Position numbers and translations under genes: made by a program
Notes under the pieces: generated by a model
Databases searched by the model: none
What the model was told of the DNA's origin: nothing
What the model saw: only the letters and a program-made list of their open reading frames with translations
IMG/VR virus record: IMGVR_UViG_3300021407_000013
Span: 11,146 to 75,145 of that record
Direction: 5' to 3' (one strand)
Origin: a virus
DNA: 64,000 nt
Shown here: positions 4,058 to 31,617 of the stretch, in pieces
How positions within the stretch are numbered: position 1 is the first letter of the stretch
Layout of the letters: the number at the start of each line of letters is the position of its first letter

Positions 4058-4542
4058 CAGGGTGTCCAACCCCACATAGAGCCGACGCTTTGGGCAATGC
4101 CCATATAGATGCGCCCCCAAGGAGTTTTCAACGTCTGCAAGTCCCCAAGCGTTAAATTCTCCATACTCTTTAGCAATTGCAATCCAGCACTCGTTCCTTG
4201 ATCTGCTGCATTATTCACAAGACCTGGAACAAAGCTATTAAGATTCAAACTGCCTCGTAAATCTGCCCAATATGTAGCCGCGTTATCAGGAGGCGGAACT
4301 GCATTTGGATCATCTTGTGCTATATTGACTAAGTAATCTCCAGCTAAATTATAGACTGCGACCGTAAAAACACCAGGATTTGCGCACCAAATGTATCTGT
4401 TAACAATTTCAAAAGCTATGTCATACGACATTTGAATATAAATACTATCCTCAGGGAGTACGTTATCTGGTACTCCCATCACAGAATAAACCCAAGCTGT
4501 ATAGCCCTCTATTGTTGGAGGAGCTAAGTCTTGGAGAGACAT
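4057..4542 (-). CDS. Head-tail adaptor/neck protein
   Basis: Position after the MCP; C-terminal LKTPWGR.Y motif typical of DUF4054-like adaptors. Confidence 0.65.
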   Translation of the reverse strand: MSLQDLAPPTIEGYTAWVYSVMGVPDNVLPEDSIYIQMSYDIAFEIVNRYIWCANPGVFTVAVYNLAGDYLVNIAQDDPNAVPPPDNAATYWADLRGSLNLNSFVPGLVNNAADQGTSAGLQLLKSMENLTLGDLQTLKTPWGRIYMGIAQSVGSMWGWTP

Positions 4543-6962: not shown

Positions 6963-8762
6963 TCAGTTGTTGCTGTTTCGTATGCCAACAAGTTGGCGCT
7001 TCGGCGCAGCAAACTGACTCATCCACGCAGACGGTCTGCCGACGAAAGTGGAAATCGTGCGACCTGTGGAATCTTGGCTCTTGATCTCCCGTAGGAAGTC
7101 CTCACCCATATCTGCTGGGTGCAGACCGGCTTGTTCAGCATCGGAATAGATCGTATTCTCGATGTTGGCGAAGGCAGCATCATCCGCAATGACCTTAAGG
7201 TCAATATCCTTCCAGGCAGTGGAATGTTGCTTGAGGCCTGTGGCAAGACGACGGCGATACGCAATCAAGGTCTCCCCATCGAGCGGGCGCGGAGCTTTGC
7301 CTCCATGCATCAAATAGACGCGATCCGCCTTGACCTGCGAATCAGCCATTGCTGCATAGTCAGCGTCGGTCATCTGGCGCGGCAGTTTAGAGGCCACGTC
7401 AGCAACGCTTTTACGGAGCGTTTCAAGCTCGGCCGCATCAGCCTTTGCCTTGGCATCGGCCTTTTCTTTTTCCTCGGCATCCGTCTTGGCTTTGGCTTCC
7501 GCGTCCGCCTTGGCCTTGGCTTCTGCATCAGCTTTTTCGCGCTCGGCGGCGTCCATTTTGGCACGGGCGTCAGCCTTCTCCTTTTCGTCGGCGTCTGCCT
7601 TGGCTTTGTCAGCCTTCTCTTTCTCCTTCGCGTCCCAAGCATCGCTTACGGTCTGCTTGACTGAATCCTTGATAGAATCAGCGAAAGATGCAAAATAAGA
7701 ATCAAATCGGGCCTTGTCAGCCTTTTCCTTTTCTTCTGCATCAGCCTTTGCCTTGGCCTCATCTGTCTTGCGAGCGGCTTCAAGAGCCGCAGCTTTATCG
7801 TCGTCTGCCATAACAAGTTCCTTTTCTGCGGTTGACACGCCACTCGGCGATAGTCCTTTATCCCAAACACCCACAAAGCAAACCGCTATGTGGTCTAGCA
7901 ACCTTGGCTTACCTTCAATAAGTAATTTGTTACCATTCCTCAGTTTAATCTTTTGATCTTCGCCGGTAAGAACCACACAAGGCGAAGTGCTTAATTGATT
8001 TTCTGCCATTATCTTGGCAGCATGTTCATCCCAAACTTTGACAATAGCCCAAACTTCATCATCTTTAATATATGGAATAAACACAGAACCAATATTTCTA
8101 TCAAGATATTCTTTGGTATCTAAAGTTTTCGTACCTGGATGTTCAAAAATAACAGGAAGCCCATTGCAACGCTCAAGAAACTCTTGATTCAAATAAATCG
8201 ACTTGTCGCGCCACACATGCTCTTTAATACCACTTCGATACGATAATCCAGTGCCAGTAATACGAATATTGAACATCGTAAGGTTGGCATAACGCTGCGG
8301 TGATACTAGATCACCTGCTGCCATTAATTTGGCAATACCTAATTCGTCAGCATGTAATTTCTTTAAAGTAACAACCAAACCAGGATGTAATGGCTCGGGC
8401 GGCATTTCGAGTGGCGCCCACTTAAATCCTGTATGCTCTTCATCTAGTCTTGGAGGTACAAATTCGTCATCTACTTCTTGAATATAGGTCGTATAATCAA
8501 CTATTAAGCTTGGTCTATCACCGTTTCCTTCGTTTGTGGAGATGCGGCGAGAGAGTTCAAGTAATTCTCCAGAAGGGTAAAATCCAATTTCTTCAGAACA
8601 TTCTCTAATGGCTGCATCGACTGATGTTTCGTTTGCTTCCCGTTTTCCACCAGGTAGATCGTAAAATCCAGAATAATCTCCTGATTCTGAACGCTTAAGA
8701 AATAATGCCCTCTTGTCAGGTGTGACAAAGAGGATGCCGGAAGCATTGATTGTCTCCGTCAT
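6963..8762 (-). CDS. Nudix hydrolase - DUF2213 prohead protease - scaffold fusion
   Basis: Nudix box GGKREANETSVDAAIRECSEEIG; central GLPVIFEHP...LSTSP...LDHIAVC..GVWD; KADA-rich coiled-coil C-terminus. Confidence 0.8.
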   Translation of the reverse strand: MTETINASGILFVTPDKRALFLKRSESGDYSGFYDLPGGKREANETSVDAAIRECSEEIGFYPSGELLELSRRISTNEGNGDRPSLIVDYTTYIQEVDDEFVPPRLDEEHTGFKWAPLEMPPEPLHPGLVVTLKKLHADELGIAKLMAAGDLVSPQRYANLTMFNIRITGTGLSYRSGIKEHVWRDKSIYLNQEFLERCNGLPVIFEHPGTKTLDTKEYLDRNIGSVFIPYIKDDEVWAIVKVWDEHAAKIMAENQLSTSPCVVLTGEDQKIKLRNGNKLLIEGKPRLLDHIAVCFVGVWDKGLSPSGVSTAEKELVMADDDKAAALEAARKTDEAKAKADAEEKEKADKARFDSYFASFADSIKDSVKQTVSDAWDAKEKEKADKAKADADEKEKADARAKMDAAEREKADAEAKAKADAEAKAKTDAEEKEKADAKAKADAAELETLRKSVADVASKLPRQMTDADYAAMADSQVKADRVYLMHGGKAPRPLDGETLIAYRRRLATGLKQHSTAWKDIDLKVIADDAAFANIENTIYSDAEQAGLHPADMGEDFLREIKSQDSTGRTISTFVGRPSAWMSQFAAPKRQLVGIRNSNN

Positions 8763-8935
8763 TCTTTCTTACTCAAAGCACCAGTTCTTAGTTCTGAACG
8801 CTCGCTTTTATCTGAAAATGGTGCACAATTTTCCTTTTTGGCAGGATTTACAGTCACTGCTGCATCTTTTTTGGGCGCAAACAACGCATCCATCATTGAG
8901 TCCAATTTTGCCATATGTTCTTTGCTGCACGGCAT
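8759..8935 (-). CDS. Small hypothetical protein (58 aa, MPCSKEHMAKLDSMMD...)
   Basis: Read by hand; TAATG overlap with the portal stop and ATGA overlap with the protease start. Confidence 0.5.
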   Translation of the reverse strand: MPCSKEHMAKLDSMMDALFAPKKDAAVTVNPAKKENCAPFSDKSERSELRTGALSKKE

Positions 8936-10518
8936 TATTGAGCCTCAGTCGTTTGTTGTGACGGTAAACGCTGTCTTTCCTTGCGATGTTCAACTTCTTG
9001 AAGGTAATCTACCACCGCGCTTTCGAGTGCATCCACGCGCGTGGAACCTGAACGGCTTAATTCACCAAGTTTATAGTGTGGTTTTCCAGGTTGTCCTGCT
9101 GCGCCACCTTCTCCGCCTGGAGTTTCAATTGGAGGCTTAAATTTAGCCATTTTCTTGTAATCTAGGATCAACGGAGACGGGAACATAGCCTTCAAATCAT
9201 TAAAATTATCAGATGCCCACTCATAAAGTGTCTCTTTATTTTCATCATCTGCGAGTGGAAGTAGCAATTCAAGCATAGAAATCACACTTCTTAGCTTGAC
9301 ATTCGCTACTTTTATCTTTTCAGAGTCAGGTTCAGTCAACAAAGATGGCCAAACCGCAATAAAGTGGTCTGACCATTCTGTAAACGCCTGATTGTAGCTC
9401 TTTTTCTTGTATTCGTCAGGAAAATCGTTTTGAACTGTTTCGTAAAATTCCAAATTCCAGGCCCGATATTGCACAATTCGAGTGAAAAAATCATATAAAG
9501 GCTGCATTGACTCACGTAATTTATCAATATAGCGCGCTATCGCTTTGGCATCCTCCTCACCCTCAGCAAAGGCAACCGCCAATGTTTCTGAATTTACTAA
9601 TTTTGCTGGCATTCCAGCTGCTGCTGCTATATTTTCAAGTATGTTTTTTCGTGCTGTGCGTGATGAGTTGTCTATATTCTGTAGGTTTAAAGATTCAATA
9701 CTCTCATCGATTGAAATATTCATCACCGAGCCGGTCATTGCCTCCTTAAGCATACCACGCTTGATGCCAGCTATCTGTTGCATCACATTATTTATGATGC
9801 TGCCAGGTGCTTTCAATTTTGCTACGATGATTCCGGCCTTTTTAGTAACCAAATCATCTGTAATCATCGACTGTAGGAATGATTTAAGTGGATAAAGTGC
9901 GCGCTGATATACAGAGCGGCCAACATAACCCCAAGCTGAAGTAGTATAATCAAGATAAATTGGATCTTCATTCTGATAAATGCTAGTTCGCGTAAAATGA
10001 TACGATTGTCCTTGGACAGCAATCGTAATTGGCTTCAAAAATACAGGAGAATTTGGATTTTGGTTTAAAACCAAGCTTCCTGCGGTATTTAATGGATCAA
10101 AAACATTAAAAGTCATCGGTTTGTTGGCTAAAGTTGCAAAATCTAATGGTTTTGTAGGATCTTCTTTTGGAATCATCACCGCTACAGAGGAAATTCCATA
10201 AATTCTTGCTAATCTTACCACATTTGCAATGATTCTATCTGCATCTATGTTTTGCCACTCATCCGTAAACGCTTTTCTGACCCGATCTTCTGGTGATCCA
10301 GGGATGTTTATGGTGCGCCCCTGAGATTGCGCCAATTGAACCGGGGTATCTACCAGTTTTGCGCCGTAAGGATGGTAAGAATAGATGAGTTTGCAGAGTT
10401 CATACGACGCTGAAGATCCTAGCTCGATATTATCGGCCATTAGGATTTTCATAAGCGGCGTACCTAGTGGAGAGCCCCCAAACAAGCCTCCACCAGGTTC
10501 TATGACTGCTTCTGCCAT
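8935..10518 (-). CDS. Portal protein (DUF1073-like)
   Basis: 527 aa after TerL; LARIYG, GRSV and ENIAAAAGMPAKL motifs. Confidence 0.85.
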   Translation of the reverse strand: MAEAVIEPGGGLFGGSPLGTPLMKILMADNIELGSSASYELCKLIYSYHPYGAKLVDTPVQLAQSQGRTINIPGSPEDRVRKAFTDEWQNIDADRIIANVVRLARIYGISSVAVMIPKEDPTKPLDFATLANKPMTFNVFDPLNTAGSLVLNQNPNSPVFLKPITIAVQGQSYHFTRTSIYQNEDPIYLDYTTSAWGYVGRSVYQRALYPLKSFLQSMITDDLVTKKAGIIVAKLKAPGSIINNVMQQIAGIKRGMLKEAMTGSVMNISIDESIESLNLQNIDNSSRTARKNILENIAAAAGMPAKLVNSETLAVAFAEGEEDAKAIARYIDKLRESMQPLYDFFTRIVQYRAWNLEFYETVQNDFPDEYKKKSYNQAFTEWSDHFIAVWPSLLTEPDSEKIKVANVKLRSVISMLELLLPLADDENKETLYEWASDNFNDLKAMFPSPLILDYKKMAKFKPPIETPGGEGGAAGQPGKPHYKLGELSRSGSTRVDALESAVVDYLQEVEHRKERQRLPSQQTTEAQ

Positions 10519-24523: not shown

Positions 24524-25525
24524 TTATGCATATCTCTCCCACATCTCAGCAAAGTCTTCTTTAAAATACCATCTTGCTAATTTTCCTTCGTGTCTTTGAA
24601 CTCTATTCTCGATCTCAAAATCTCTGAGTATTCGAGCAAGTTTGCCTGTTGACAATTTATAGTCTGACCAATTTACATCGCTAAAATCTGAATTTATCAA
24701 AAACTCTACTAATTGATTATTGGTAATTGCGTCTTTCTTGCTATTGGTGAATATCTCTTGAACATCAGATAGCAACGACTCTCTGACATCTGGAATAACT
24801 CTTTCTTTATAGAAATCAGCCATTGCCTCATATGCAGTCTTCGCACGATCTACGGCATGGCCTATCGCAATGAGTGGGCGCCACTTGTCTGCGTAGCGCC
24901 CTATAATTTGTGGAGGCATTAATGGATTTGGATTGAGATTTACACCTTCTGCCCATCGCGCAACCTCTGCGTGATAAAAAGCCTCTCTTGGATTAAATAT
25001 CTCCATTTGTTTATTTGAGCGATGCATTTTAACCATTATGGATCTACTCATAAGCGATACTGGTAAATGGCCTATACTTGCAAGAGCGAGTGGGCCATAT
25101 ACAGGAGTTAATATGACTTCTTTACCTATTTTCCTGGGTACACTTCCTCCAATTTCGTGTCCTGCATTTAGAATGGCTTTCATACTTCTTACTATGGACA
25201 TATTATCTACTTCATCAATTAGCAATGTATGACTATTAGCTAGAGCAAATGCAGTAGCTGGAGTTGGATCTATTACTTTCTCTGGGCGCCACACAATTGA
25301 GTTTAAAATATTGAGTACAGAACTTTTACCGCAGTTTGGTAATGGGCTGAAAATTAGCAGTCTAGGTGATTTATCATATCTTCTATGTATGTGGGTATGT
25401 AGCGCCCAGAGACCTAGACCTACAATATGATGTGGTTTTGCGTCTATACATCTGGCAAAAGCACCGCATACTTGGTCAAGAATGTTAGTATCAGCGTGCA
25501 ATTTGGTTGATGATAACGTGGGCAT
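24524..25525 (-). CDS. DUF3631-containing P-loop replication protein
   Basis: PRL.I.SP..NCGKS, LLIDEVD, ILNAGH, SRSI, D.WRPL.AI motifs. Confidence 0.75.
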   Translation of the reverse strand: MPTLSSTKLHADTNILDQVCGAFARCIDAKPHHIVGLGLWALHTHIHRRYDKSPRLLIFSPLPNCGKSSVLNILNSIVWRPEKVIDPTPATAFALANSHTLLIDEVDNMSIVRSMKAILNAGHEIGGSVPRKIGKEVILTPVYGPLALASIGHLPVSLMSRSIMVKMHRSNKQMEIFNPREAFYHAEVARWAEGVNLNPNPLMPPQIIGRYADKWRPLIAIGHAVDRAKTAYEAMADFYKERVIPDVRESLLSDVQEIFTNSKKDAITNNQLVEFLINSDFSDVNWSDYKLSTGKLARILRDFEIENRVQRHEGKLARWYFKEDFAEMWERYA

Positions 25526-25814: not shown

Positions 25815-26031
25815 TTTTCTCTCCTAGTTGATCTCGTCAGGTAGTGTATTACACTACTATTATCAGCTCATAATTATAGCGTAAGCTGATAATTTCGATC
25901 TCAGGAAACGACGCAACCATTTTGGTAGTTACTTAACCGCATGGCATTCTTCTAATACCAGGTTTGTGTCGCTTTTCGTCGAAATGACTGCGCCCGAGTT
26001 TTCTCTCGGGTGAAATTCCTGCTTACAACCT

Positions 26032-27291: not shown

Positions 27292-27459
27292 GGGTTATGT
27301 CAGAGCGTAAATTGAAAGATAGGAGCATTTTCAGGAAACAGCCAAAAATGCCGCCACTACAGCGATTGTTTGTCAGCGCAGCAACTGGACATGCCAATCG
27401 CAGCAAAAAACTAAAAGTCTCAGTTGCACCTATGCAATTCACCAAACAGGAGAAGAAAA

Positions 27460-27792
27460 ATGACGAAGATGTTTAACCAGGAAGTACATGACAACCTCAT
27501 TGCTCTCGGATACACGTATCTATTCAGATACAAGAATAGATACGATGAGTATAACCATCCTATTAACGACGACTGGATTAGCATAGACAAAGTTGGGCGT
27601 GTAGATTTCCCAGATATATGCTCCTATATTGATACTCCAAAGCATAAAGCTAAAATCCAGAGGGATATGACACCTGCTATGGCATTAAGAATAGCAGTTA
27701 ATATGAAGAAAATATTTGAACAAAAGAATTTGCCATACCAATTAGATATAGATGGTCATAAAATAAAATTAGGAATAATGACTCAACATTAG
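27460..27792 (+). CDS. Hypothetical protein
   Basis: AGGAG RBS; its TAG overlaps hammerhead 1. Confidence 0.65.
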   Translation: MTKMFNQEVHDNLIALGYTYLFRYKNRYDEYNHPINDDWISIDKVGRVDFPDICSYIDTPKHKAKIQRDMTPAMALRIAVNMKKIFEQKNLPYQLDIDGHKIKLGIMTQH

Positions 27793-27855
27793 ACCGAAAC
27801 TGGTGCGCCATATAGGGCGTTCCAGTCCTAGCGTGAGGCGCTAGCTGACGAGGTC
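27792..27855 (+). ncRNA. Type II hammerhead ribozyme HH1
   Basis: GACC-GAAA-CTGG..CCAG-TC^-CTAGCG(TGAGG)CGCTAG-CTGACGA-GGTC; predicted cleavage after C27827. Confidence 0.93.
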
Positions 27856-27874
27856 AGTAACAGGAGAAAGTACA

Positions 27875-28096
27875 ATGGCACGGGTAATTGTTCAGGTTAA
27901 GCTTGCAGACATCAATGGAAACGAATACACGGAAGGTGAGTTGCTTCGTGAATTTACAGTAGTAACCAAAGGTCGCGGTGCAATAAATATACAGTCGATG
28001 GCATCAATTATACAAGGTACAATCGAAGCTTATGAGGACAAATTTAGGGTTGAAAATACCAAAACATATTCAGTAACAAATCGCCGAACTGGTTAA
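27875..28096 (+). CDS. Hypothetical protein, the only gene between HH1 and HH2
   Basis: AGGAG RBS just after the ribozyme. Confidence 0.7.
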   Translation: MARVIVQVKLADINGNEYTEGELLREFTVVTKGRGAINIQSMASIIQGTIEAYEDKFRVENTKTYSVTNRRTG

Positions 28097-28099
28097 CCA

Positions 28100-28158
28100 G
28101 GCCGAAACTGGCAGGTGCGATCTGCCAGTCCTAGCGTAAATCGCTAGCTGACGAGGTC
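28100..28158 (+). ncRNA. Type II hammerhead ribozyme HH2
   Basis: GGCC-GAAA-CTGGCAG..CTGCCAG-TC^-CTAGCG(TAAAT)CGCTAG-CTGACGA-GGTC; cleavage after C28130. Confidence 0.93.
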
Positions 28159-28177
28159 AGTAACCAGGAGAACTAAA

Positions 28178-28465
28178 ATGGCACAGATAGAAGATGAGCA
28201 ATTACTCGCGATGTATTCGCGGGATTTTACCACTGATAAGTCCTATGGACAGCTCAGTGTTGTCTCCATACTCACAGAGAGTGTGGAGCAACTAACAGAT
28301 CTCATACCAGAGATCGCTACGCTCCCAGTTGAGCGTAAGGCACAGATTGAAGAGCAGATTGTGCTCTTCACTCTTTCGCTCTACCACGAAGGTAGATTGC
28401 GCGGTGAAGCTGCGGAGCGTTCCACACAAGAGGCTGATTCTGATCGCCTCTCAAATTACGAGTGA
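28178..28465 (+). CDS. Hypothetical protein
   Basis: AGGAG RBS. Confidence 0.65.
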   Translation: MAQIEDEQLLAMYSRDFTTDKSYGQLSVVSILTESVEQLTDLIPEIATLPVERKAQIEEQIVLFTLSLYHEGRLRGEAAERSTQEADSDRLSNYE

Positions 28466-28473
28466 GGTAGCAA

Positions 28474-28713
28474 ATGACAACCATTACAATCGAACTAGAG
28501 ATAGTTCAGGCCCAAGAACTTGCCGCAGTAGCACGTGGCAAAGCTAAGGGCATCGACTGGGTTCTGGAGAATAAACCTCCAATTCCCAAGAAGGCGTTAG
28601 AGCTTGATGAGCGAGCTAAGGTGCTCATACAAGCAGCCACTACCATTGAGACAGCGCTCCATGCAAGGGCGCTCTCCAATGTCGTTCCGTTGGGAGGTAA
28701 AAATGCCGGCTGA
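28474..28713 (+). CDS. Hypothetical protein
   Basis: GAGGTAGCA leader. Confidence 0.6.
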   Translation: MTTITIELEIVQAQELAAVARGKAKGIDWVLENKPPIPKKALELDERAKVLIQAATTIETALHARALSNVVPLGGKNAG

Positions 28714-28999
28714 TCCCTGGATCGTATGCCCAGTCTGCGATGGCGAAGGCAAGACTGTCAATCCGAACATTGATTCGAACGGATTGACCAGAGAAGACTT
28801 CGATGAAGACCCAGACTTCAGAGAAGATTATATGAGCGGCGTATATGATATTACGTGCGCTGCTTGCTCTGGGAAGCGTGTTGTGAAAGCAGCACGTATC
28901 GAGGAGCTTCAACAAAATGCTGAAGATCGACGCCTCGCCGCTCGTGAGAACGGTGATTATGAATCATACTGCGGTGCAGGCGACTGGAGGTATGGGTAA
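28703..28999 (+). CDS. DnaJ-type zinc-finger protein
   Basis: CPVCDGEG...CAACSG; GGAGG RBS. Confidence 0.65.
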   Translation: MPADPWIVCPVCDGEGKTVNPNIDSNGLTREDFDEDPDFREDYMSGVYDITCAACSGKRVVKAARIEELQQNAEDRRLAARENGDYESYCGAGDWRYG

Positions 29000-29238
29000 T
29001 GGACAAGCAAATAGAAAATCGCGCCAAGTACCCATACATCTGCGCTTGGGGTATGCGACTTGGTTCTTTTCAATATTATATCGACGGAGAAATTAAAAGA
29101 GCCATCGAGGACGGCGCTCCTGAGCGTGCCATTTACAAGAGCGGTTCAGGAGAGTGGCGCACCATTGATGATTGTGCGAACCCCAATGCTAAAGAAGAAT
29201 GTGAGGCGTGGGTAGCTAAAAAATACCCTGGCAAATAG
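28999..29238 (+). CDS. Hypothetical protein
   Basis: TAATG coupling; its TAG overlaps HH3. Confidence 0.65.
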   Translation: MDKQIENRAKYPYICAWGMRLGSFQYYIDGEIKRAIEDGAPERAIYKSGSGEWRTIDDCANPNAKEECEAWVAKKYPGK

Positions 29239-29294
29239 ATCGAAACTGGCAGTGCGATTGCCAGTCGCGTTGTAATGCAACGCCTGACGAGGTC
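29238..29294 (+). ncRNA. Type II hammerhead ribozyme HH3
   Basis: GATC-GAAA-CTGGCA..TGCCAG-TC^-GCGTTG(TAATG)CAACGC-CTGACGA-GGTC; cleavage after C29266. Confidence 0.93.
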
Positions 29295-29319
29295 AGTTAC
29301 CCAAACCAGGACTACGAAA

Positions 29320-29532
29320 ATGGCTATCCAAAATACAACATTATATGAGGATAACTATGGCTTCTACTGTGTAGAGGAGCCAGATGAAGAAGCCTTCTAC
29401 GTCCACATCGTAAAGCAGAGTGTGGCGAAGAAGTGCTCGCGTTGCCAAAAGAAGGTGCGCTTGTTGAAGCATATCAAAATGTGCGCTTCGTGTTCTAATG
29501 CCATCGAGTTTGGCGCATCGGAGTCAATATAA
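29320..29532 (+). CDS. Zinc-ribbon protein
   Basis: CSRC...CASC; start placed after the ribozyme. Confidence 0.6.
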   Translation: MAIQNTTLYEDNYGFYCVEEPDEEAFYVHIVKQSVAKKCSRCQKKVRLLKHIKMCASCSNAIEFGASESI

Positions 29533-29816
29533 TGTCAAACGAAATTTTAGAAGCTGTGCCAGACACAGAAGCCAAGCCGCGTATGGTTAAGATACAGGTG
29601 TGGTGTTGGAAGACCTATACCAAAAAATACAAAGATGAAGTTGTTAGCTTCATGTCAGAAGAATACAGCGCTGATGCTTACAAGTCGGAAGGTGACATTA
29701 TAAATCATCATCTTACAAACGGCCACTACCAATTGCATCGTATTGATTGCTTCTACACTTTAATACATGAAGGTGGTTCTACTGATATACTGCAATGGAG
29801 GTTCGAGCAGTCATGA
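29532..29816 (+). CDS. Hypothetical protein
   Basis: TAATG coupling. Confidence 0.6.
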   Translation: MSNEILEAVPDTEAKPRMVKIQVWCWKTYTKKYKDEVVSFMSEEYSADAYKSEGDIINHHLTNGHYQLHRIDCFYTLIHEGGSTDILQWRFEQS

Positions 29817-30115
29817 AAGAAGGTAATCACATCATTACCATTGAAGAGCTATTTTTATTATCTGTCATGCTTCGACAGTTCCAAGAAAAAGTAGAAGCAA
29901 TTGACAAAGACAAAACAATTTCATCTTTCGTTGCCTTGTTTCCATTGGAGCAAGACAAGTCAGAAGATCCACATGAAATTGCTAAAGTTTCTCTCCAGAA
30001 TTTATTGGAGGGATTCGAGAAAACCGAGCGTCAAATTCGCGATACAAACTACCAGTTGTTCAAAGTTAGAACATTTCTGGAAGCCCTAAAGGATGGCGCC
30101 TCAGATTGGAAATAG
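29813..30115 (+). CDS. Hypothetical coiled-coil protein
   Basis: ATGA coupling; its TAG overlaps HH4. Confidence 0.6.
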   Translation: MKEGNHIITIEELFLLSVMLRQFQEKVEAIDKDKTISSFVALFPLEQDKSEDPHEIAKVSLQNLLEGFEKTERQIRDTNYQLFKVRTFLEALKDGASDWK

Positions 30116-30181
30116 ATCGAAACTATGGGGCGCACCAAAAGCGTTCCATAGTCGCGGCGTTACTCGCCGCCTGACGAGATC
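30115..30181 (+). ncRNA. Type II hammerhead ribozyme HH4
   Basis: GATC-GAAA-CTATGG..CCATAG-TC^-GCGGCG(TTACT)CGCCGC-CTGACGA-GATC; cleavage after C30153. Confidence 0.93.
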
Positions 30182-30200
30182 AGAAAAAGGAGTAGGTAGC

Positions 30201-30410
30201 ATGACGAAAGTAGATCCAAAATCTGCCTTTGAAGGGGACACCATTACTCCCATCGAAAAGCCCAAAACAAGGCAACAGAAAATTGTTGAGTATAGAGCAG
30301 CTCACGAAGCTGAGTATCGTAAGGCGTGCCACGAAGAGCAATGCACCTGCACACCAACGCGGGCGCAAATGCTCATTATGGAGAATTACAACCATCCACC
30401 GATCGACTAA
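30201..30410 (+). CDS. Hypothetical protein
   Basis: AAGGAG RBS just after HH4. Confidence 0.6.
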   Translation: MTKVDPKSAFEGDTITPIEKPKTRQQKIVEYRAAHEAEYRKACHEEQCTCTPTRAQMLIMENYNHPPID

Positions 30411-30427
30411 GAAAATTTATTGAACTT

Positions 30428-30452
30428 AGTGGGGCTTCGGCCCCATTCTTTT
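30428..30452 (+). terminator. Rho-independent terminator
   Basis: AGTGGGGC-TTCG-GCCCCATT followed by CTTTT. Confidence 0.75.
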
Positions 30453-30486
30453 AGGTCATTTAAGGCCACTAACCAGGAGAGTAAAA

Positions 30487-30783
30487 ATGGAAATCCACGA
30501 CAATCTTCACTATACTGATTCTACATACGGAAACCCAGAACGTAAATGGCAGATGCGTTCTGATCACATTCTCAAGCTGTTCGATCTACCACCGAATGGT
30601 CCAATTCCTCCTGATCATTTCGATTCTAGGGTTATTGGCAATGTGCAGGTTATGATCGTTCCGCGCGGTTATTTCAAAATCAAGCGTCGTGTGGTCGCGT
30701 ATTGCCCCAAGTGCAAGAAAATTGTGTGCGCTGGTCATTTAATGCAGCACATGAAGGTCCACAAGAAGGACCAGGAGATTTAA
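30487..30783 (+). CDS. C2H2-like zinc-finger protein
   Basis: CPKC...L.QHM.VH. Confidence 0.6.
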   Translation: MEIHDNLHYTDSTYGNPERKWQMRSDHILKLFDLPPNGPIPPDHFDSRVIGNVQVMIVPRGYFKIKRRVVAYCPKCKKIVCAGHLMQHMKVHKKDQEI

Positions 30784-30928
30784 GATGACTCAATTAGATT
30801 TTCATTCCGCCTGTATTTTGGTCCTCGGTCTTGGAGGCTTCGCCAATACCGTTGCCAATTATCTGCTATCAAAACGAGTCCGCTATTTGGAGCATAAACG
30901 CAAGGTTATGTTCTGGGAAAGGGAGTAA

Positions 30929-31156
30929 ATGACCGAACAGGAAGAAGCATTTGATCTATGGAAATCCAGAGTAGACGTTTATCTGGAGCAGATGGTTAAA
31001 AAGCTAAGTGGAGATTTTCGTTACGATTTTTTGAAAGACTTCAACGATAAGGTTCCACCTAGCGTAACAGCAACCAGAGTTGTTAAAAGTCAATACAAAG
31101 GAGCTAGAAATGGCAGAGTACGAAGTCAAATCAAACGGGAAGAAGCTCCTCGATGA
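30929..31156 (+). CDS. Hypothetical protein
   Basis: GGGAG RBS. Confidence 0.55.
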   Translation: MTEQEEAFDLWKSRVDVYLEQMVKKLSGDFRYDFLKDFNDKVPPSVTATRVVKSQYKGARNGRVRSQIKREEAPR

Positions 31157-31340
31157 GTATCGAGGAGACCGCGTTTTTGGAGATTGTTATGTCATTCTTA
31201 AGGATGGAAAGGAATCGTATGAAGTCGTCCTTTCTACCATAGTTGACAGTTGCAATTGCCCAGGATTTACACATCACGGGCATTGTAAGCATATTGATAT
31301 GACTTACGAGAAAGCATTTGTTTCTGAAGTAGATCAATAG
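31110..31340 (+). CDS. SWIM zinc-finger protein
   Basis: CNCPGF....HCKHI; its TAG overlaps HH5. Confidence 0.7.
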   Translation: MAEYEVKSNGKKLLDEYRGDRVFGDCYVILKDGKESYEVVLSTIVDSCNCPGFTHHGHCKHIDMTYEKAFVSEVDQ

Positions 31341-31404
31341 ACCGAAACTTGGTGCGCCACAAAGGCGTTCCAAGTCGTGCTGTTAGGCAGCACCTGACGA
31401 GGTC
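31340..31404 (+). ncRNA. Type II hammerhead ribozyme HH5
   Basis: GACC-GAAA-CTTGG..CCAAG-TC^-GTGCTG(TTAGG)CAGCAC-CTGACGA-GGTC; cleavage after C31376. Confidence 0.93.
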
Positions 31405-31428
31405 AGAAATGCCAAGGAGGTAGCACGT

Positions 31429-31575
31429 ATGGGTGACCCAGAAGAGCATAAAGACGAAGAGTTGAGCGTAAAGGCTGATACTCCTGCTCCAAAGGAGGAA
31501 GGTCCGTCTGAACCAAAAGAACCAGAAGCGGATCCAATCCGTAAAGGTGAAGGCGATCAGCCTGAAGTAGCGTAA
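31429..31575 (+). CDS. 48-aa acidic Pro/Glu-rich peptide
   Basis: Read by hand: MGDPEEHKDEELSVKADTPAPKEEG...EVA; AAGGAGG RBS; bounded by HH5 and a terminator. Confidence 0.6.
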   Translation: MGDPEEHKDEELSVKADTPAPKEEGPSEPKEPEADPIRKGEGDQPEVA

Positions 31576-31580
31576 GCATA

Positions 31581-31617
31581 GGCCGCTCCCATTTGGGAGG
31601 ATGGGAGCGGTTTCTTT
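31581..31617 (+). terminator. Rho-independent terminator
   Basis: CCGCTCCCAT..ATGGGAGCGG followed by TTTCTTT. Confidence 0.75.

What the first reader, a model, noticed from the sequence alone, without database searches (positions are those of the whole stretch)
27790..31343. Upstream stop codons are built into ribozyme stem II, suggesting translation-coupled cleavage
Seen: in HH1, HH3, HH4 and HH5 the G of the upstream TAG is the first base of the 4-bp stem II (TAGAYC-GAAA at 27790, 29236, 30113, 31338). HH2 starts 3 nt after a TAA. Most other genes here end in TAA or TGA, so four TAGs at these junctions is notable. Inference: a terminating ribosome would cover stem II, GAAA and part of stem III, so cleavage could depend on how heavily the upstream gene is translated. 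Stem II closes 7-12 nt before the next RBS.
Basis: partly seen in the sequence, partly recalled or inferred. Interest (0 to 1): 0.7.

Follow-up and report, generated by a model that had tools for sequence, protein, structure and literature searches.

The report
Stop codons fused to phage hammerheads
In four of six self-cutting hammerhead RNAs between small phage genes, the previous gene's TAG stop overlaps the ribozyme's first base pair, but comparison with about 100 related phage ribozymes points to tight genome packing, not to a proven link between translation and RNA cutting.

Summary
The window, from a 75-kb tailed-phage record, holds six perfect-core type II hammerheads: the five reported and one on the minus strand. 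At HH1, HH3, HH4 and HH5 the in-frame TAG of the upstream ORF ends on the first G of the 4-bp stem II. HH2 starts 3 nt after a TAA.

Four TAGs in five junctions exceeds the window's TAG use of about 16-19% (p about 0.003-0.005).

The pattern is general. Among 101 related phage type II hammerheads with a coding-like upstream ORF, 47 have a stop codon that shares the base before stem II. Another 28 stop 1-5 nt further upstream.

That base (-1) is A in 88% of copies, and in 80% even where no stop uses it. Stem II usually starts with G. So TAG is the only stop that can overlap stem II, and one-base deletions turn TAA-G or TGA-G into TA-G.

Ordinary gene junctions in the same phages are equally tight. 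About a quarter of relatives, plus HH2 and the minus-strand copy here, lack the overlap.

A terminating ribosome must exclude the active fold while it sits on the stop, but nothing indicates an evolved control device. This scan reached the same verdict before on other genomes.

The parts
27790..27855 (+). HH1. TAG stop 27790-27792; stem II 5' strand GACC 27792-27795; GAAA 27796-27799; stem III hairpin to 27826; C17 at 27827 (predicted cut 27827|27828); stem I hairpin 27828-27844; CUGACGA 27845-27851; stem II 3' strand 27852-27855.
28094..28158 (+). HH2. TAA stop 28094-28096; CCA spacer; stem II GGCC 28100-28103; GAAA 28104-28107; predicted cut 28130|28131; stem I hairpin 28131-28147; CUGACGA 28148-28154; GGTC 28155-28158. 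No overlap with the stop.
29236..29294 (+). HH3. TAG 29236-29238; stem II GATC 29238-29241 (one G-U pair with GGTC 29291-29294); GAAA 29242-29245; predicted cut 29266|29267; CUGACGA 29284-29290.
   Evidence: the minimum-energy fold of the isolated RNA prefers a competing 3' hairpin
30113..30181 (+). HH4. TAG 30113-30115; stem II GATC 30115-30118; GAAA 30119-30122; predicted cut 30153|30154; CUGACGA 30171-30177; GATC 30178-30181.
   Evidence: the orthologous junction in L072 keeps the in-frame TAG
31338..31404 (+). HH5. TAG 31338-31340; stem II GACC 31340-31343; GAAA 31344-31347; predicted cut 31376|31377; CUGACGA 31394-31400; GGTC 31401-31404.
25830..25900 (-). Sixth hammerhead (HH0), minus strand. 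Stem II GATC 25900-25897; GAAA 25896-25893; cleavage triplet UA with A17 (predicted cut 25858|25857); stem I 25857-25841; CUGACGA 25840-25834; GATC 25833-25830. It is preceded by TGA, but that is not the stop of any ORF of 30 aa or more. The nearest upstream ORF ends in TAA at 25931-25929.
27424..27792 (+). Upstream ORF ending in the HH1 TAG. The other ORFs ending on ribozymes are 28999-29238, 29795-30115 and 31080-31340. ORF 27875-28096 ends in the TAA before HH2. All are small ORFans.
   Evidence: no PHROG or Pfam family
27856..27877 (+). Tail AGTAAC, ribosome-binding site AGGAGA and ATG (27875) after HH1. The same layout follows the other copies, with starts at 28178, 29320, 30201, 31429 and, on the minus strand, 25814.
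   Evidence: across 113 relatives the next start lies a median 21 nt after stem II

Best explanation
These are six type II hammerhead ribozymes that fill whole intercistronic gaps, from stop codon to ribosome-binding site, in the small-gene (early-type) operons of a tailed phage.

They most likely cut the long transcript between genes. Each upstream piece would then end in the stem III hairpin, and each downstream piece would begin with the stem I hairpin followed by its own ribosome-binding site.

The stop-codon overlap is a packing effect set by ribozyme sequence constraints. The base before stem II is a conserved A, and stem II starts with G. The furthest an ORF can run without entering the ribozyme is therefore U-A-G on those two bases.

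One-base deletions that do not change the protein convert TAA-A-G to TAA-G, and TAA-G or TGA-G to TA-G. Deletion bias would therefore funnel junctions into the TAG overlap, which is the end state.

The terminating ribosome does exclude the active fold for as long as it sits on the stop. This is a side effect, not a demonstrated control.
For: The ribozymes are real:
- All six have perfect cores and compensatory stem I changes.
- The hammerhead fold is the minimum-energy structure for four of five.
- My structure-aware finder gave 113 hits in 2.0 Mb of viral loci and none in the same sequences reversed.

The overlap is general (n = 101). The stop begins:
- at -2 in 31 copies (29 of them TAG);
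- at -3 in 16 (TAA or TGA);
- at -4 to -8 in 28;
- further upstream in 22;
- past the first base of stem II in only 4, and those are doubtful ORF calls.

The A at -1 is an RNA feature and the U at -2 is not:
- A(-1) occurs in 104 of 118 copies, and in 57 of 71 where no stop uses it.
- T(-2) occurs in only 15 of those 71.
- TAG at -2 is the true ORF stop in 30 of 38 cases, against one third expected (p = 1e-8).

The packing null fits:
- Among 817 junctions without a ribozyme in the same loci, 33% overlap and 53% have a spacer of 15 nt or less.
- In this operon the plain junctions are TAATG-type overlaps or gaps of 0-8 nt.
- The counts fall -2 > -3 > -4 (31, 16, 6), as a deletion ratchet predicts.
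- TAG is 35% of stops at ribozyme junctions and 19% elsewhere (Fisher p = 4e-4).

Overlap is not required:
- HH2 and HH0 lack it.
- The orthologue of HH5 in L072 has a different upstream gene ending in a flush TAA.

Clustered hammerheads flanking phage genes and proposed to process long transcripts are described in PMC3088659.
Against: The deletion ratchet is my inference and was not tested on orthologous pairs.

The strong excess of -2 over -3 (29 TAG to 16 TAA/TGA, against 19% background TAG use, p = 2e-11) could also reflect selection for merging the stop with the ribozyme. So could the bias of the upstream reading frame relative to the ribozyme (45:30:11, p = 4e-5).

In TAG junctions the base at -4 is A in 24 of 31 copies. 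Packing alone does not explain this.

Gene calls were made with a crude ORF and codon-usage heuristic.

Copies within a phage are not fully independent.
Confidence: 0.62

Rival explanations
1. Translation-coupled cleavage as an evolved device. Ribosomes terminating on the fused stop keep stem II and GAAA unpaired, so heavy translation of the upstream gene delays or lowers cleavage and tunes the downstream gene.
For: The geometry is real. The stop uses A(-1) and the first stem II base. About 80% of relatives (70 of 92 outside this phage and L072) have the stop within 12 nt, inside a ribosome footprint. Junctions prefer the maximal overlap.
Against: The overlap is not obligatory: HH2, HH0 and 22 of 101 relatives lack it. 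Plain junctions are equally tight. The stop type and position follow from the fixed A-G plus deletions. By inference, termination takes about a second or less, cleavage is irreversible, and the ribozyme can refold between ribosomes, so at most a modest rate change is expected. No paper found describes such coupling.
Confidence: 0.12
2. Ribosome as insulator or chaperone, with the opposite sign. The 3-4 bp stem II is fragile. Translation running right up to the ribozyme edge keeps upstream RNA from pairing with the 5' strand, so translation promotes correct folding and cleavage.
For: The predicted probability of stem II falls from 0.72 for the ribozyme alone to 0.23 with 60 nt of naked native upstream RNA (117 copies). 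For HH1 and HH2 it falls from above 0.9 to below 0.02, through small local hairpins that include the stop codon.
Against: Shuffled upstream RNA interferes as much (0.15; Wilcoxon p = 0.12), so there is no evolved signal. The energy model ignores tertiary contacts and co-transcriptional folding. Energy differences are only 0.5-5 kcal/mol.
Confidence: 0.13
3. Portable junction module. The stop, the ribozyme and the ribosome-binding site travel together as the boundary of exchangeable gene cassettes. The TAG would then be inherited with the ribozyme's 5' half through recombination between hammerhead copies.
For: Comparison with the close relative L072:
- Gene 27875-28096 plus one ribozyme is absent there, leaving an HH1/HH2 hybrid.
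- A 1.66-kb block bounded by two hammerheads sits where this phage has the single HH5.
- Gene 29532-29816 is replaced.

HH1 and HH2 share an identical stem I and 3' tail. The flank AAC-TAG-ACC recurs in about nine different loci. HH2 is flanked by the direct repeat TAACCAGG.
Against: Recombination inside the ribozyme keeps each upstream gene with its own 5' edge, so it does not explain how a new gene acquires a flush in-frame stop. T at -2 is not conserved when it is not a stop. This reading is compatible with the packing explanation and does not replace it.
Confidence: 0.13

Closest known systems
Clustered type II hammerhead ribozymes flanking genes in prophages and phages (Perreault et al. 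2011, PMC3088659)
   Same: Type II topology with stems I and III capped and stem II open. Several same-strand copies lie between single genes or short gene blocks of a phage. The proposed role is cutting long transcripts into gene-length mRNAs.
   Different: These copies have a 4-bp stem II, a 6-bp stem I and a 5-nt U-N-A-N-G loop. They lack the loop I / 3'-tail pseudoknot that the paper reports for most type II examples. The paper never mentions stop codons (0 occurrences).
Rfam Hammerhead_II (RF02276)
   Same: Same catalytic core and the same circular permutation.
   Different: The model gives no hit on this genome even at E <= 10. In the same session it scored pseudoknot-type copies in L148, L166 and L229, and three L240 copies, above its cut-off. 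It gave no hit in L072, L032, L068 or L136, which hold copies with a 4-bp stem II.
Overlapping stop/start junctions of compact phage operons (TAATG, ATGA)
   Same: Adjacent functional elements share bases and there is no free spacer. Overlapped states are commoner than merely flush ones.
   Different: Here the stop shares bases with a ribozyme helix and its flanking A, not with a start codon.
Synthetic ribozyme insulators such as RiboJ
   Same: A hammerhead placed just before a ribosome-binding site gives the downstream gene a defined 5' end with a hairpin, independent of upstream context.
   Different: RiboJ is an engineered type III hammerhead at a promoter junction. These are natural type II copies between translated genes.

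Membership tests
Hammerhead ribozyme, type II | Conserved core: CUGANGA, GAAA, an A15.1-U16.1 pair, H17 at the cleavage site and a G10.1-C11.1 pair | tested here: met
   All six copies have every core position. H17 is C in five copies and A in the minus-strand copy.
Hammerhead ribozyme, type II | Three helices around the core, with stems I and III closed by loops and stem II formed by the 5' and 3' ends | tested here: met
   The structure-aware search finds stem II of 4 bp, stem III of 5-12 bp and stem I of 6-7 bp. The minimum-energy fold reproduces this for HH1, HH2, HH4 and HH5. Stem I sequences differ between copies with full compensation.
Hammerhead ribozyme, type II | Pseudoknot between loop I and the 3' tail (present in most type II examples per PMC3088659) | tested here: not met
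   The best loop/tail helix is 1-4 bp in the six copies. It averages 2.7 bp against 2.5 for shuffled tails in the 51 relatives with a 4-bp stem II and a 5-nt loop. The 3-bp stem II class gives 4.9 against 3.7. The paper says not all type II copies have the pseudoknot, so this marks a sub-architecture and does not exclude membership.
Hammerhead ribozyme, type II | Score above the gathering threshold of Rfam RF02276 (37 bits) | tested here: not met
   No match at the gathering score or at E <= 10. A positive control on other loci worked.
Hammerhead ribozyme, type II | Self-cleavage at the predicted site | not testable with these tools
No wet-lab assay is available.
Clustered phage hammerheads that process polycistronic mRNA | Several same-strand copies in intergenic gaps of a phage genome, each followed by a gene with its own ribosome-binding site | tested here: met
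   Five plus-strand copies lie within 3.6 kb, with one more on the minus strand. The phage carries portal, large terminase, DNA polymerase, helicase, primase and tail fibre genes. Relatives L072, L032, L068, L136 and L240 hold 5-9 copies each.

The most novel reading that the evidence does not exclude
The stop codon is merged with the ribozyme on purpose. The conserved A before stem II, probably a tertiary-contact base, and the first stem II pair are read by the release factor. The ribozyme could then reach its active fold only after the ribosome has left. Cutting would be timed to, or throttled by, termination on the upstream gene, or ribosomes would act as the chaperone for a fragile closing helix. 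This would be a natural ribosome-gated ribozyme common to many phages.
Probability: 0.12. Interest if true: 0.6.

Novelty: new member of a known kind. Interest (0 to 1): 0.3.

Why it matters
Arrays of hammerheads in phage operons have been known since 2011, but their biological role is still unproven.

The useful result here is a rule. About half of phage type II hammerheads share a base or two with the previous gene's stop codon, because the position before stem II is a conserved A. That explains a local excess of the otherwise rare TAG stop. It also warns gene callers and RNA-family models: Rfam's type II model misses this whole sub-architecture.

If translation did gate cleavage, this would be a simple natural link between two core processes. 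The present evidence does not favour that.

Tried and rejected
- **Rfam:** a scan of the whole window at gathering scores and of 20-40 kb at E <= 10 gave no hammerhead hit. RF02276 against the whole phage record gave none.
- **Cultured phage relatives:** blastn of 27400-31600 against 50,697 phage records gave no match.
- **Functions of the flanking small genes:** PHROGs found nothing. Pfam gave only a weak DnaJ zinc-finger-like hit for 28703-28999, plus DUF3631 for 24524-25525.
- **Stem II extended by a pair between -2 and +2 across an A-A mismatch:** no covariation, 58 pairs seen against 51 expected. Rejected.
- **UAG as a purely structural motif used by chance:** rejected, because T at -2 is not conserved when it is not the stop, and TAG is in frame in 30 of 38 cases.
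- **Evolved anti-ribozyme pairing in the upstream coding RNA:** native and shuffled upstream sequences do not differ.
- **First automated ORF choice (longest open frame):** it mis-called the L072 orthologue of HH4, as the alignment showed. A codon-usage score replaced it.
- **Literature:** searches for hammerheads overlapping stop codons or gated by ribosomes in bacteria or phages found no such report.
Full report
**What is there**

The window is bases 11146-75145 of a 75,145-bp viral record rated 94% complete. It encodes a portal protein, large terminase, DNA polymerase, helicase, primase and tail fibre, so it is a tailed dsDNA phage. No cultured phage matches the region.

Between 25.8 and 31.4 kb lies a block of small ORFan genes with no PHROG or Pfam family. 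Within it, a structure-aware search finds six type II hammerheads. Five are on the plus strand, with GAAA-to-CUGACGA spans of 27796-27851, 28104-28154, 29242-29290, 30119-30177 and 31344-31400. One is on the minus strand (25896-25834).

Every core position is present in all six. The 6-bp stem I has a different sequence in most copies, with full compensation. Four of the five plus-strand copies fold into the hammerhead junction as their minimum-energy structure, with z-scores of -3 to -5.4.

Rfam finds none of them, even at E <= 10. The same model did score pseudoknot-type copies in other loci. These six belong to a sub-architecture:
- stem II of 4 bp;
- stem I of 6 bp;
- a 5-nt loop with consensus U-N-A-N-G (U at position 1 in 50 of 51 relatives, A at position 3 in 42 of 51);
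- no loop I / 3'-tail pseudoknot.

**Check of the observation**

The four TAGs at 27790, 29236, 30113 and 31338 are the in-frame stops of ORFs 27424-27792, 28999-29238, 29795-30115 and 31080-31340. In each, the G is the first base of stem II. HH2 begins 3 nt after the TAA at 28094. The minus-strand copy has no overlapping stop.

With TAG at 16-19% of stops in the window, four of five junctions being TAG has p = 0.003-0.005.

**Relatives**

Two pattern scans of viral contigs specified nothing upstream of GAAA. They gave 234 loci, about 2.0 Mb. The finder recovered 113 hammerheads in 69 of those loci, and none in the same sequences reversed.

I chose each upstream ORF by a per-locus codon-usage score. 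That left 101 copies with a coding-like upstream ORF. The first base of the stop, relative to the first base of stem II, lies at:

| Position | Copies |
|---|---|
| -2 | 31 (29 TAG) |
| -3 | 16 (12 TAA, 4 TGA) |
| -4 to -8 | 28 |
| -9 to -15 | 7 |
| further upstream | 15 |
| apparently inside the ribozyme | 4 (doubtful ORF calls) |

Leaving out this phage and its close relative L072, 39 of 92 share a base and 70 of 92 have the stop within 12 nt. The next start codon lies a median 21 nt after stem II. Filling the whole gap from stop codon to ribosome-binding site is thus the norm for these ribozymes.

**Why TAG**

The base before stem II is A in 104 of 118 copies, and still in 57 of 71 where no stop codon uses it. 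T at -2 occurs in only 15 of those 71. So the A is an RNA feature and the U is there only as part of a stop.

From general knowledge of hammerhead tertiary contacts, this A sits where the last base of loop II would be in capped forms. Loop I begins with an invariant U. I therefore infer a loop-to-flank contact, which I did not test.

TAG at -2 is the true ORF stop in 30 of 38 cases, against one third expected by frame (p = 1e-8). It is a working stop, not a structural motif.

With A(-1) and G(0) fixed, the only stop that can reach stem II is TAG, and a flush stop must be TAA or TGA. TAG makes up 35% of stops at ribozyme junctions and 19% at 817 other junctions in the same loci (p = 4e-4).

**Packing or coupling**

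Plain same-strand junctions in the same loci overlap in 33% of cases and have 15 nt or less of spacer in 53%. In this operon they are TAATG-type overlaps or gaps of 0-8 nt. Flush ribozyme junctions are therefore what packing predicts.

The counts fall steadily: -2 (31), -3 (16), -4 (6). The upstream reading frame relative to the ribozyme is also biased, 45:30:11 (p = 4e-5).

A deletion ratchet explains this without any function for the overlap. Removing one base turns TAA-A-G into TAA-G, and TAA-G or TGA-G into TA-G. None of these steps changes the protein, and TA-G cannot be shortened further. This is my inference. Selection for merging cannot be excluded.

One item remains unexplained: in TAG junctions the base at -4 is A in 24 of 31 copies.

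**Does translation matter?**

By established footprint geometry, a ribosome with the stop in its A site covers roughly nine further bases. That is stem II, GAAA and the start of stem III. The active fold is excluded while the ribosome is there.

Several points argue against a dedicated device:
- HH2, the minus-strand copy and about a fifth to a quarter of relatives lack the overlap.
- The orthologue of HH5 in L072 has a different upstream gene ending in a flush TAA.
- The L072 orthologue of HH4 keeps its TAG.

Thermodynamic folding shows the short stem II is fragile. Its predicted probability falls from 0.72 for the ribozyme alone to 0.23 with 60 nt of naked upstream RNA. Shuffled upstream RNA does the same (0.15, p = 0.12). 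There is no sign of an evolved switch. If anything, ribosome cover of the upstream RNA would help folding, not hinder it.

The direct test, RNA reads, was not available.

**Comparison with what is known**

Perreault et al. 2011 (PMC3088659) described type II hammerheads, their clustering around genes in prophages, and the idea that they cut long phage transcripts. They do not mention stop codons. A 2019 review still lists the bacterial role as unresolved (PMC6765202). I found no paper on ribosome-gated hammerheads in bacteria or phages.

This scan has met the same stop-ribozyme fusion on several other genomes and judged it a packing effect. My independent census agrees.

**Verdict**

This is a new member of a known kind, with a modest added rule: the conserved A plus G makes TAG the terminal packed state. 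It also exposes a gap in the Rfam model.

Noticed in passing
window 27822-28184 and 31339-31349, against L072 (reverse strand) 4113-4207 and 7414-9158: Gene cassettes bounded by hammerheads differ between this phage and its 95-97% identical relative L072. Gene 27875-28096 plus one ribozyme is missing in L072, leaving an HH1/HH2 hybrid. L072 has a 1.66-kb extra block between two hammerheads where this phage has the single HH5. Gene 29532-29816 is replaced. This looks like recombination between ribozyme copies.
   Followed up: partly
window 28094-28101 and 28161-28168: HH2 is flanked by the 8-nt direct repeat TAACCAGG. The upstream copy holds the TAA stop. The downstream copy runs into the ribosome-binding site. 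It could be a trace of how the ribozyme or cassette was inserted, or it could be chance.
   Followed up: no
window 25830-25900, minus strand: A sixth type II hammerhead, not in the finding, with a UA (A17) cleavage site. It sits at the head of the leftward small-gene transcript, about 30 nt after the nearest ORF stop.
   Followed up: yes
window 27790-31404; loci L072, L032, L068, L136: Rfam RF02276 gives no hit in these sources, whose hammerheads have a 4-bp stem II (most with a 6-bp stem I, a U-N-A-N-G loop and no pseudoknot). A dedicated covariance model would recover many phage copies.
   Followed up: partly
window 30428-30447, plus strand: A GC-rich hairpin followed by CTTTT lies after gene 30201-30410. 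It is a terminator-like site inside the ribozyme-punctuated operon, between HH4 and HH5.
   Followed up: no
loci with TAG at -2 (for example L017, L027, L029, L032, L062, L075, L094, L116): The last sense codon before the fused TAG is strongly A-rich. Position -4 is A in 24 of 31 copies, and the flank AAC-TAG-ACC recurs in unrelated contigs. Whether the cause is RNA constraint, termination context or shared ancestry is unresolved.
   Followed up: partly
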